A DNA stretch of 64,000 nt from the human T2T-CHM13v2.0 reference genome, Homo sapiens, in the NCBI RefSeq assembly GCF_009914755.1, contig NC_060939.1. One strand, given 5' to 3'. Both the position numbers and the translations under genes were made by a program. The notes under the pieces are model-generated. The model saw only the letters and a list, made by a program, of their open reading frames with translations. It was not told where the DNA came from and did no database searches. Of the stretch, positions 14,433-22,052 are shown piece by piece. Position 1 is the stretch's first letter; every line of letters begins with the position of its first letter.

Positions 14433-14445
14433 AAATATACTGGAC
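14433..14445 (+). repeat. 5' target-site duplication of the L1HS insertion (AAATATACTGGAC)
   Basis: Exact 13-bp match to 21695-21707, extendable by [C/T]GA. Preceded by TTTCTT/ATAA, an L1 endonuclease-like site. Confidence 0.85.
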
Positions 14446-14448
14446 CGA

Positions 14449-15355
14449 GGCTGGAGGAGCCAAGATGGCCGAATAGGAAGAGCTCCGGTCTACAGCTACT
14501 AGCGTGAGCGACGCAGAAGACGGGTGATTTCTGCATTTCCATCTGAGGTACCGGGTTCATCTCACTAGGGAGTGCCAGACAGTGGGCGCAGGCCAGTGTG
14601 TGTGCGCACCGTGCGCGAGCCGAAGCAGGGCGAGGCATTGCCTCACCTGGGAAGCGCAAGGGGTCAGGGAGTTCCCTTTCCGAGTCAAAGAAAGGGGTGA
14701 CGGACGCACCTGGAAAATCGGGTCACTCCCACCCGAATATTGCGCTTTTCAGACCCGCTTAAGAAACGGCGCACCACGAGACTATATCCCACACCTGGCT
14801 CAGAGGGTCCTACGCCCACAGAATCTCGCTGATTGCTAGCACAGCAGTCTGAGATCAAACTGCAAGGCGGCAACGAGGCTGGGGGAGGGGCGCCCGCCAT
14901 TGCCCAGGCTTGCTTAGGTAAACAAAGCAGCCGGGAAGCTCCAACTGGGTGGAGCCCACCACAGCTCAAGGAGGCCTGCCTGCCTCTGTAGGCTCCACCT
15001 CTGGGGGCAGGGCACAGACAAACAAAAAGACAGCAGTAACCTCTGCAGACTTAAGTGTCCCTGTCTGACAGCTTTGAAGAGAGCAGTGGTTCTCCCAGCA
15101 CGCAGCTGGAGATCTGAGAACGGGCAGACTGCCTCCTCAAGTGGGTCCCTGACCCCTGACCCCCGAGCAGCCTAACTGGGAGGCACCCCCCAGCAGGGGC
15201 ACACTGACACCTCACACGGCAGGGTATTCCAACAGACCTGCAGCTGAGGGTCCTGTCTGTTAGAAGGAAAACTAACAACCAGAAAGGACATCTACACCGA
15301 AAACCCATCTGTACATCACCATCATCAAAGACCAAAAGTAGATAAAACCACAAAG
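14449..15355 (+). promoter_or_regulatory. L1 5'UTR internal Pol II promoter (sense and antisense), CpG island, YY1 site
   Basis: YY1 motif CAAGATGGCC at 14461-14470. High CpG density compared with the rest of the window. Confidence 0.9.
14685..14900 (-). CDS. ORF0: LINE-1 ORF0 (antisense 5'UTR ORF), 71 aa
   Basis: ATG at 14900-14898 gives MAGAPPPASLPPCSLISDCC...RCVRHPFL, 71 aa. It is the C-terminal part of track ORF 14685..14969. Confidence 0.9.
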   Translation of the reverse strand: MAGAPPPASLPPCSLISDCCASNQRDSVGVGPSEPGVGYSLVVRRFLSGSEKRNIRVGVTRFSRCVRHPFL

Positions 15356-16372
15356 ATGGGGAAAAAACAGAACAGAAAAACTGGAAACTCTAAAACGCAG
15401 AGCATCTCTCCTCCTCCAAAGGAACGCAGTTCCTCACCAGCAACAGAACAAAGCTGGATGGAGAATGATTTTGACGAGCTGAGAGAAGAAGGCTTCAGAC
15501 GATCAAATTACTCTGAGCTACGGGAGGACATTCAAACCAAAGGCAAAGAAGTTGAAAACTTTGAAAAAAATTTAGAAGAATGTATAACTAGAATAACCAA
15601 TACAGAGAAGTGCTTAAAGGAGCTGATGGAGCTGAAAACCAAGGCTCGAGAACTACGTGAAGAATGCAGAAGCCTCAGGAGCCGATGCGATCAACTGGAA
15701 GAAAGGGTATCAGCAATGGAAGATGAAATGAATGAAATGAAGCGAGAAGGGAAGTTTAGAGAAAAAAGAATAAAAAGAAATGAGCAAAGCCTCCAAGAAA
15801 TATGGGACTATGTGAAAAGACCAAATCTACGTCTGATTGGTGTACCTGAAAGTGATGTGGAGAATGGAACCAAGTTGGAAAACACTCTGCAGGATATTAT
15901 CCAGGAGAACTTCCCCAATCTAGCAAGGCAGGCCAACGTTCAGATTCAGGAAATACAGAGAACGCCACAAAGATACTCCTCGAGAAGAGCAACTCCAAGA
16001 CACATAATTGTCAGATTCACCAAAGTTGAAATGAAGGAAAAAATGTTAAGGGCAGCCAGAGAGAAAGGTCAGGTTACCCTCAAAGGAAAGCCCATCAGAC
16101 TAACAGCGGATCTCTCGGCAGAAACCCTACAAGCCAGAGGAGAGTGGGGGCCAATATTCAACATTCTTAAAGAAAAGAATTTTCAACCCAGAATTTCATA
16201 TCCAGCCAAACTAAGCTTCATAAGTGAAGGAGAAATAAAATACTTTATAGACAAGCAAATGCTGAGAGATTTGGTCACCACCAGGCCTGCCCTAAAAGAG
16301 CTCCTGAAGGAAGCACTAAACATGGAAAGGAACAACCGGTACCAGCCGCTGCAAAATCATGCCAAAATGTAA
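15356..16372 (+). CDS. ORF1: LINE-1 ORF1p, RNA-binding/nucleic-acid chaperone (coiled coil, RRM, CTD), 338 aa
   Basis: MGKKQNRKTGNSK...NHAKM, canonical length. REKG235-238 and YPAKLS282-287 are intact; RR261-262 reads RG. Confidence 0.98.
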   Translation: MGKKQNRKTGNSKTQSISPPPKERSSSPATEQSWMENDFDELREEGFRRSNYSELREDIQTKGKEVENFEKNLEECITRITNTEKCLKELMELKTKARELREECRSLRSRCDQLEERVSAMEDEMNEMKREGKFREKRIKRNEQSLQEIWDYVKRPNLRLIGVPESDVENGTKLENTLQDIIQENFPNLARQANVQIQEIQRTPQRYSSRRATPRHIIVRFTKVEMKEKMLRAAREKGQVTLKGKPIRLTADLSAETLQARGEWGPIFNILKEKNFQPRISYPAKLSFISEGEIKYFIDKQMLRDLVTTRPALKELLKEALNMERNNRYQPLQNHAKM

Positions 16373-16435
16373 AGACCATCGAGACTAGGAAGAAACTGCA
16401 TCAACTAATGAGCAAAATCACCAGCTAACATCATA

Positions 16436-20780: not shown

Positions 20781-20884
20781 CCCTTGCACCACCCTGAGTA
20801 GAGCTTACAGACCCCTCTTCCTCCCTGAGAAGGAAGGTATTCTCAGTGAACACTGCCCCCGACCCTAAGTGAATTAGAAAGACT

Positions 20885-21230
20885 TTCTCTCTACCTAATG
20901 TCTGTCACAGCACTTACCACGCACTTACCATAATTATCTATCTACAAACCTAGACTGTAAGGCTTGAGCAGCAAGTACTTTTGTATCCCAGTACCTAGAT
21001 CAGTGTCAAGCTCGTAGGAGGTTCTCAGGCCCCATGGTGTAGTGGTTAAAAGTATAAACTTTATAATAATCCATCCAAATCTCAAACCCCTTTGCTAAAT
21101 ATAAGTTCTCATTTAGAGTAAGCAAAACATTTGAGGCTTCATTTCCTTAGTGGTGAGAATGAGATAAATATAGTAATATCTACTTCATAGTTGCCTTAAG
21201 AATATGAAATAAGAATAATGAATGAATGAG
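20885..21230 (+). mobile_element. L2 3' end interrupted by a MIR (within the transduction)
   Basis: CTAGACTGTAAG...TTTGTATCCCAGTACCTAG, then MIR-like ATGGTGTAGTGGTTAAAAG, then an (AATG)n tail at ~21217. Confidence 0.55.
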
Positions 21231-21694
21231 AGAAAGAATGAGTGAGCGAACCCATCCACCAACCAACTTCTCAAAGAACCCCACTGTCCCCAAAACTCTC
21301 CTTGTGTTCTGGAATTCTGTTAGAGCTTTTGAAAAAAGAAAGCACAGCTTAGATTTGGCTAAGACCAACCTGAATTCAATCAATTCTAAAACAAAATCAA
21401 GAAAGAAAAAAAGAAAGCCTGCATCAACCAGTCACTACTTTCTATTTTTCTAGGAGGTGGGAATATGGACAGGACTGATCTCTGTAGCTCCTTTTTTGAA
21501 CTTGGGACGATCTCAGATCTCACCTGTGGCGATTTCACAGCATAGCAGTAGAGGGTTAAAACTTATATGAACTTCGTTTGAACTTTGTATGGGCTCCTCT
21601 CTTACTTTAAAAAGTTTTACATTAAACTTTGTAATGTAAGGAGAACATGCAATTTAAATTAAAGAATTGGAGGAGATTTGGGTATTTAAAAAAA

Positions 21695-21707
21695 AAATAT
21701 ACTGGAC
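21695..21707 (+). repeat. 3' target-site duplication of the L1HS insertion (AAATATACTGGAC)
   Basis: Overlaps the end of the A10 tract; identical to 14433-14445. Confidence 0.85.
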
Positions 21708-22052
21708 TGAAATTAGCTCTTCCCACAAAAATTAAAGGTGTATTAAAGTTTGTTTTCAAAGATATAATATTTTGAAACTGTGTGGGCTTTCATTTCTGCC
21801 TTCCTTAGCCATTAACGACTAGAGTCCTTCAGGCCTGGTGCTCATGCTTAAGGCTCTATGTCTACACTGACGGGGTAAAAAGTGCCTTAGAAGCACCAGC
21901 AGGTGGAAGTGGGATTTACTACGCTGCCATCTATCTGGTATCCAAAGTGTCAGGAGTGCCCTCTGCACTGCGTGCCCAATGCCACAGCTCTTTCCTGATG
22001 TGCAGGTGATCCAGCCTCAATAACTGGGTTGTTGTCTTCTAGTTCCTGATTC

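What the first reader, a model, noticed from the sequence alone, without database searches (positions are those of the whole stretch)
14433..21710. Full-length L1HS carrying a ~1.2 kb 3' transduction: the TSD lies 1.2 kb beyond the L1 poly(A)
Seen: the L1 is preceded by TTCTT-ATAAATATACTGGACCGA. Nothing matching this follows its A21 tail, but AAATATACTGGACTGA reappears at 21695-21710, directly after a second A10 tract that sits 24 nt downstream of ATTAAA (21658-21663). DNA right after the L1 tail also starts part-way into an old L1M 3'UTR with no evident counterpart on the 5' flank. Known: read-through of the weak L1 polyA signal produces exactly this TSD-L1-An-flank-An-TSD structure. Inference: 20490-21687 was copied from the parent element's locus, so the true insertion is ~7.26 kb and the segment identifies the source L1. 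Repeat annotation alone would miss this.
Basis: partly seen in the sequence, partly recalled or inferred. Interest (0 to 1): 0.85.

Follow-up and report, generated by a model that had tools for sequence, protein, structure and literature searches.

The report
L1 element carrying chr8 flank
A full-length human L1 jumping gene on chromosome 15 dragged along 1.2 kb of chromosome 8 DNA when it was copied, a well-known process that shows where its now-missing parent once sat.

Summary
A 16-nt direct repeat, AAATATACTGGAC(C/T)GA, lies at 14433-14448 and 21695-21710. It brackets a full-length L1HS (14449-20468, both reading frames open), an internal A21, 1,198 nt of non-L1 DNA and a second A-tail that follows an ATTAAA signal. 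The repeat occurs only at these two places in the window, with 0 expected by chance. Nothing else downstream of the L1 tail matches the 5' flank.

The predicted second locus exists. Window 20490-21687 has exactly one other copy in this assembly, at contig C8:123610305-123611503. It differs by 3 substitutions and one homopolymer indel.

On chr8 the sequence runs on at both ends with no poly(A). It starts at TTT|AAAAAGGCAG, a typical L1 endonuclease site. No L1HS lies upstream of it. So chr8 is the donor, and CHM13 carries the empty allele of the source L1.

This is a textbook L1 3' transduction of roughly 1-2 Myr age. It improves the annotation: the insertion is 7.26 kb, not 6.05 kb. It is not surprising. 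Ape orthologues, other human haplotypes and published catalogues could not be checked.

The parts
14433..14448 (+). 5' target-site duplication, AAATATACTGGACCGA
   Evidence: It is preceded by ...CTTTCTTAT, so the bottom-strand nick site reads ATTT/AT, which resembles the L1 endonuclease site.
14449..20468 (+). Full-length L1HS body (5'UTR, ORF1, ORF2, 3'UTR). It carries the Ta-type ACA in the 3'UTR.
   Evidence: It is 99.10-99.20% identical to the 11 best-scoring other L1HS copies in the assembly. The ACA trinucleotide and the 3'UTR G are shared with those 11; an older copy differs. That ACA/G marks the Ta subfamily is recalled, not from a call.
15356..16372 (+). ORF1, 338 aa, open
   Evidence: Pfam Transposase_22, Tnp_22_dsRBD and Tnp_22_trimer match. 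The protein carries G at residue 262 and Q at 239.
16436..20263 (+). ORF2, 1275 aa, open
   Evidence: Pfam Exo_endo_phos (residues 11-230) and RVT_1 (residues 517-773) match.
20469..20489 (+). Internal A21. It overlaps the L1's own AATAAA (20466-20471). It is read as the source element's genomic poly(A), and its last 5 A's also match chr8.
   Evidence: The alignment to chr8 starts at window 20485.
20490..21687 (+). Transduced chr8 DNA, 1,198 nt. It consists of an old repeat piece (20490-20527), a 5'-truncated Alu with an A-rich tail (20528-20654) flanked by GAAAAGTGGTTAC at 20515-20527 and 20655-20667, an old repeat piece (20654-20783), and single-copy DNA from about 20784 to 21687.
21658..21663 (+). 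ATTAAA polyadenylation signal used by the read-through transcript. Cleavage came 24 nt later.
   Evidence: Homology to chr8 stops at 21687.
21688..21694 (+). Terminal poly(A) of the insertion: 7 A's, or 10 counting the three A's shared with the duplication
   Evidence: chr8 has TTAAGCC here.
21695..21710 (+). 3' target-site duplication, AAATATACTGGACTGA

Best explanation
Window 14449-21694 is one retrotransposition event: a full-length L1HS (Ta) with a 1.2-kb 3' transduction.

1. A source L1 once sat in + orientation on chromosome 8, inserted between TTT and AAAAAGGCAG at C8:~123610300 (inferred).
2. Its transcript ran past the L1's own AATAAA and through the source's genomic poly(A) (inferred).
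3. It continued through 1.2 kb of chr8 flank and was cleaved and polyadenylated 24 nt after an ATTAAA. The boundaries are shown; the transcript itself is inferred.
4. The RNA was reverse-transcribed at a nick in chr15, which made the 16-nt target-site duplication (the structure is shown).
5. In the CHM13 assembly the chr8 site is empty, so the source L1 is polymorphic or has been lost from the population (the empty site is shown; its population status is unknown).

The divergence of the tag (3 substitutions in 1,198 nt) puts the event very roughly at 1-2 Myr, with a wide error.
For: - The 16-nt repeat flanks the composite element and not the L1 alone: 2 matches in the window with 0 expected, and no other word of 10 nt or more shared between the 5' flank and 20469-23000.
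- There are two A-tracts. The second follows ATTAAA by 24 nt.
- There is one and only one other copy of 20490-21687 in the 3.1-Gb assembly, on chr8. It differs by 3 substitutions and 1 homopolymer indel. For the single-copy part, 2 of 2 candidates are chr15 and chr8.
- On chr8 the homology begins at TTT|AAAAAGGCAG. The bottom strand there reads TTTTT/AAA, the L1 endonuclease consensus as I recall it. The homology ends at GGGTATTT|TTAAGCC with no poly(A). So chr8 is the unprocessed donor.
- The chr15 flanks are single copy, so this is not a segmental duplication.
- The L1 is full length, both frames are open, and all L1 protein domains are found.
Against: - No L1HS lies upstream of the chr8 copy in this assembly. 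The 8.8 kb fetched upstream of the homology hold only an old, 90%-identical L1 3' fragment, 2.3 kb away. The source element itself was therefore never seen.
- Absence of the insertion from ape orthologues was not tested.
- The duplication has one mismatch.
- The chr15 nick site (ATTT/AT) departs from the consensus at two of six positions.
- No sibling insertion with the same tag exists in CHM13.
Confidence: 0.93

Rival explanations
1. Template-switch chimera. The L1 reverse transcriptase began on a polyadenylated chr8 transcript that never had an L1 upstream. At the AAAAA run it jumped to the poly(A) tail of an unrelated L1 mRNA and copied that in full.
For: It would give the same order of parts: L1, A-tract, chr8 DNA, A-tract, all within one duplication. 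The junction lies at an A-run, which could serve as microhomology. No source L1 is seen on chr8.
Against: The chr8 start point has the full TTT|AAAAA endonuclease-site form, not just an A-run. By recall, known L1 chimeras put the second template 5' of a usually truncated L1, and read-through transduction accompanies roughly a tenth or more of L1 insertions. No evidence was obtained for an independent transcript at this chr8 site.
Confidence: 0.04
2. Two separate events. The chr8 piece first arrived on chr15, as an orphan transduction or a DNA-level duplication. A full-length L1 later landed exactly at its 5' edge.
For: None specific. It would also leave L1 next to chr8-derived DNA.
Against: The L1 would then need its own duplication after the A21, and there is none. 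The only duplication brackets the whole composite. The chr15 copy ends in a poly(A) that chr8 lacks, so a DNA-level copy is excluded. The flanks are single copy.
Confidence: 0.02
3. The repeat at 21695 is a chance match. The L1 ends at its A21 without a duplication, and the chr8 similarity is unrelated.
For: The duplication has one mismatch.
Against: Expected chance matches were 0.00 in 100 shuffles. The repeat sits exactly where the chr8 homology and the second A-tail end.
Confidence: 0.01

Closest known systems
L1 3' transduction (read-through of the weak L1 polyadenylation signal). I recall it from Moran 1999, Goodier 2000, Pickeral 2000 and Szak 2003; none of these was read here.
   Same: The structure is duplication, L1, A-tract, flank, A-tract, duplication. 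The flank ends after a downstream polyadenylation signal. There is a single donor locus elsewhere in the genome.
   Different: Nothing in kind. The only particular is that the donor locus is empty in this assembly.
[quoted passage not shown]
   Same: A reference-genome L1 holds transduced DNA from a source that the reference lacks. Insertions with this tag could be assigned to the wrong parent.
   Different: Those proxies are truncated L1s whose sources are still active in tumours. This one is full length with open frames, and nothing is known about whether its source still exists.
Catalogue of CHM13 transductions made with a modified TSDfinder (Hoyt et al. preprint, 10.1101/2021.07.12.451456; passages read): 183 top-confidence L1 3' events, with lower bins in its Table S13
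   Same: Same assembly, same kind of event, same detection logic (duplication plus two A-tails plus parent locus).
   Different: I could not see its tables, so I do not know whether this event is listed or in which confidence bin. A parent locus without an L1 might lower its bin.

Membership tests
L1HS (Ta) LINE-1 | ORF1p with trimerisation, RRM-like and C-terminal domains | tested here: met
   Pfam Tnp_22_trimer, Transposase_22 and Tnp_22_dsRBD match, each across its full profile. The frame is 338 aa and open.
L1HS (Ta) LINE-1 | ORF2p with endonuclease and reverse transcriptase domains | tested here: met
   Exo_endo_phos at residues 11-230 and RVT_1 at residues 517-773. The frame is 1275 aa and open.
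L1HS (Ta) LINE-1 | About 99% identity to other human-specific copies, and the ACA / G characters in the 3'UTR | tested here: met
   99.10-99.20% identity to 11 of 11 compared copies. ACA and the G are shared with those 11; older copies show AAG or GAG. The meaning of these characters is recalled.
L1 3' transduction | The target-site duplication brackets L1 plus extra DNA, and none follows the L1's own A-tail | tested here: met
L1 3' transduction | The extra DNA ends in its own poly(A), shortly after a polyadenylation signal | tested here: met
   ATTAAA at 21658-21663, end of homology at 21687, then the A-run.
L1 3' transduction | The extra DNA has a near-identical donor locus elsewhere that lacks the poly(A) | tested here: met
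   C8:123610305-123611503, with 3 substitutions and 1 indel. It is the only other copy.
L1 3' transduction | A source L1 directly upstream of the donor DNA | tested here: inconclusive
   It is absent in this one haplotype. The site reads TTT|AAAAAGGCAG, as an empty target site would. Other haplotypes could not be searched.
L1 3' transduction | The whole composite is absent at the orthologous site of outgroup species or empty alleles | not testable with these tools
   No ape genome or human pangenome is held. The chr15 flanks have no paralogue that could stand in.

The most novel reading that the evidence does not exclude
The chr8 source L1 is recorded in no catalogue, or is extinct. The 1.2-kb tag on chr15 would then be its only surviving trace: a daughter that stayed in the population while its parent allele was lost. 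The daughter's sequence would be a partial record of a dead side lineage of early Ta elements.
Probability: 0.3. Interest if true: 0.3.

Novelty: already known. Interest (0 to 1): 0.2.

Why it matters
- **Annotation.** The true insertion is 7,246 nt (14449-21694) plus a 16-nt duplication, not the 6.05 kb that repeat masking shows. The 1.2 kb after the L1 is not chr15 DNA by descent.
- **Parent locus.** The tag pins the parent to one site on chr8 that is empty in CHM13. This gives a concrete place to look for a segregating, possibly active, non-reference L1.
- **Mapping.** Reads or new insertions carrying this tag map to both chr8 and chr15. Source tracing that relies on transduction tags could therefore mis-assign them, which is the 'proxy' problem of PMC13009371.

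None of this changes what is known about L1 biology.

Tried and rejected
- **Repeat continuity across the chr8 junction.** I tried to show chr8 is ancestral by finding old-repeat continuity across the junction. The 39 other copies stop about 15 nt before it. Together this shows that the DNA upstream of the junction is an inverted piece of the same old repeat family. The test says nothing either way, and I dropped it.
- **Siblings of the L1.**
  - The whole-element search gave only copies 48-54 mismatches away.
  - A 61-nt probe over three of its odd sites hit one exact copy, which proved to be an old L1 only 94.5% identical.
  - Probes over 19158/19162 and over 20044 hit 40 of 40 and 23 exact full-length copies other than the query itself (three more matched exactly over 60-61 of the 62 nt). 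Those sites are therefore not private; I first took them to be.
  - A 571-nt probe found no copy closer than about 6 mismatches.
  - Two loci fetched from that list were a GAG-type truncated copy at 97.9% and a 750-nt fragment at 98.7%.
  - No sibling was found. The tool scores only 25-40 candidates per search, so this is weak.
- **Literature.** Searches for LINE-1 + transduction + 8q24.13 (2 papers, both about other loci), for LINE-1 + transduction + 15q25.3 (0 papers) and for retrotransposition + source + 15q25.3 (0 papers) found no mention of this event. PMC4862182 and PMC9311842 name no chr8 or chr15 locus in their main text, nor does PMC13192797.
- **Not held or closed.** Szak 2003 is not held. 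The catalogues where this event would be listed were therefore not seen.

Full report
**Observation**

- The L1 begins at about 14449, directly after ...TTCTTATAAATATACTGGACCGA.
- Its 3' end carries AATAAA at 20466-20471, running into an A21 at 20469-20489.
- After 1,198 nt of non-L1 DNA there is ATTAAA at 21658-21663.
- The non-L1 DNA ends at 21687, 24 nt after that signal.
- An A-run follows at 21688-21697, and AAATATACTGGACTGA sits at 21695-21710.

The 16-mer, with the one mismatched position left free, occurs at these two places and nowhere else on either strand of the 64-kb window. The expected number was 0.00 in 100 shuffles. A word comparison of the 40 nt upstream of the L1 with 20469-23000 found no other shared word of 10 nt or more. 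The L1's own A-tail is therefore not followed by any copy of the 5' flank. The single mismatch is C versus T at a CpG.

**The element**

Under the standard code there are two open frames in 14400-21750: 338 aa (15356-16372) and 1275 aa (16436-20263).

- Pfam finds the three L1 ORF1p domains in the first frame.
- It finds the endonuclease and reverse-transcriptase domains in the second.
- The 6,020-nt body is 99.10-99.20% identical (48-54 mismatches) to each of the 11 best-scoring other copies that the genome search returned.
- It shares with all 11 the ACA trinucleotide and the G in the 3'UTR. An older copy has other letters there.

I recall that these characters mark the Ta subfamily; no call shows it.

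**The second locus**

- It lies at C8:123610305-123611503 on the + strand. Every other hit was to the roughly 130-nt Alu piece only.
- BLAST of the window region against 11.5 kb of chr8 gave one alignment: window 20485-21687 to C8:123610300-123611503, 99.67% over 1204 positions.
- A global alignment lists the differences: three substitutions (21014, 21193, 21232) and one A missing from an A9 run.
- The part free of old repeats, 20770-21687, gave 2 candidates and 2 matches, chr15 and chr8.

**Direction of copying**

On chr8 the similarity starts at ...GAGTCTTT|AAAAAGGCAGTC... and stops at ...GGGTATTT|TTAAGCCTGG.... Ordinary DNA continues on both sides and there is no A-tail. On chr15 the same stretch is preceded by L1-A21 and followed by an A-tail and the duplication. 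The chr15 flanks are single copy. So chr8 is the unprocessed donor, and chr15 holds a polyadenylated, reverse-transcribed copy.

**The source element**

The 8.8 kb of chr8 fetched upstream of the similarity hold no L1HS. They hold only a 421-nt L1 3' fragment, 90% identical and 2.3 kb away. That fragment cannot be the parent of a 99%-L1HS element.

The similarity begins at TTT|AAAAA. On the bottom strand this reads TTTTT/AAA, the L1 endonuclease consensus as I recall it. This is what the empty allele of a source insertion should look like:

- The transduced RNA would begin, after the source's genomic A-tail, with the source's own 3' duplication, AAAAAGGCAG....
- The five A's shared with chr8 at the end of the A21 fit this.

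I infer that the source L1 sat here in + orientation and that CHM13 carries the allele without it. I could not test whether the filled allele still segregates in people.

**Age (inference, not a call)**

Three substitutions in about 1,197 aligned sites is 0.25% between the two copies. Scaled to a human-chimpanzee divergence of about 1.2% in 6-7 Myr (recalled), this is about 1.3-1.5 Myr. The Poisson range for three events stretches it from about 0.3 to over 4 Myr.

The hub's table lists a RefSeq enhancer feature at 14142-14694 that spans the flank/L1 junction. This suggests that GRCh38 carries the insertion too.

**The L1 lineage**

The element differs from all 11 compared copies at 29 internal sites. 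These are not all private.

- The states at 19158/19162 are exact in 40 of 40 scored copies, and the state at 20044 is exact over the full probe in 23 copies other than the query itself, with three more exact over 60-61 of the 62 nt.
- The three states at 18890-18921 occur in an old copy on chr4.
- The best match to a 571-nt probe is a truncated copy with GAG at the diagnostic site, 97.9% identical.

So the element keeps older states at several ORF2 sites where the nearest L1HS copies are derived. This fits an early Ta lineage or a mosaic element.

The three 5'UTR sites (14480, 14498, 14500) found no exact match among 40 scored copies. No sibling was found, but each search scores only 25-40 candidates.

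**Likely activity**

At the 23 coding sites where the element differs from all 11 copies, 18 differences change the protein and 5 do not. This ratio looks like unconstrained change. ORF1p reads ...LQARGEWG..., with G at residue 262 where the others have R, and Q at 239 where they have R. Passages of PMC2951350 state that RR261-262AA and RR261-262KK severely compromise retrotransposition in HeLa cells. I infer that the chr15 copy, though its frames are open, is probably not competent.

**Rivals**

- **Template switch.** A jump from a chr8 transcript to an L1 mRNA tail would give the same order of parts. It leaves the full endonuclease-site form at the chr8 start as coincidence, and it has no supporting transcript evidence.
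- **Two separate insertions.** This is contradicted by the single bracketing duplication and by the lack of one after the A21.
- **Chance.** This is excluded and by the coincidence of the repeat with the end of the chr8 similarity.

**What is known**

L1 3' transduction is textbook.

- A preprint on this very assembly catalogued transductions with a modified TSDfinder: 183 top-confidence L1 3' events, with lower bins in a supplementary table (passages).
- A 2026 paper names reference L1s whose tag comes from a source absent from the reference 'proxy elements' (passages).
- My three cytoband searches and four main-text look-ups found no mention of this particular event.
The event may well be listed there.

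**Verdict**

The donor locus has been located, and it is empty in CHM13. This is a clean, useful annotation point of a well-known kind, and its interest is low.

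Noticed in passing
window 16139 (ORF1 codon 262) and 16071 (codon 239): ORF1p has G at 262 and Q at 239, where 11 of 11 compared L1HS copies have R. Residues 261-262 are the pair whose mutation severely compromises retrotransposition (PMC2951350 passages). The frames are open, but the element is probably inactive.
   Followed up: partly
window 14480, 14498, 14500: Three substitutions lie within the first 52 nt of the L1 5'UTR. 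A 63-nt probe over them found no exact match among 40 scored copies; the best was 97%. They could serve as lineage markers for the lost chr8 parent.
   Followed up: partly
window 18890-19162: A cluster of five sites in ORF2 differs from the 11 nearest L1HS copies but matches states found in older (GAG-type) L1 copies. The element is either from an early Ta lineage or a mosaic.
   Followed up: partly
window 20515-20667: Inside the transduced DNA, a 5'-truncated Alu with a (GAAAA)n-like tail is flanked by a 13-nt direct repeat, GAAAAGTGGTTAC. It is present in both the chr8 and chr15 copies, so it predates the transduction.
   Followed up: no
L002 1330-1540 (C8:123610134-123610344): At the donor locus the DNA just upstream of the source insertion site is an inverted piece of the same old repeat family as the DNA just downstream. 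In other copies the two pieces are contiguous and co-oriented.
   Followed up: partly
L011 (C8:123607614-123608033): An old L1 3'-end fragment, 90% identical to the L1HS 3' end, lies 2.3 kb upstream of the donor stretch. It is too diverged to be the source.
   Followed up: no
window 14142-14694: The RefSeq 'enhancer' feature in the hub's table spans 307 nt of unique flank plus the first ~246 nt of the L1 5'UTR. Its activity may simply reflect the L1 promoter.
   Followed up: no
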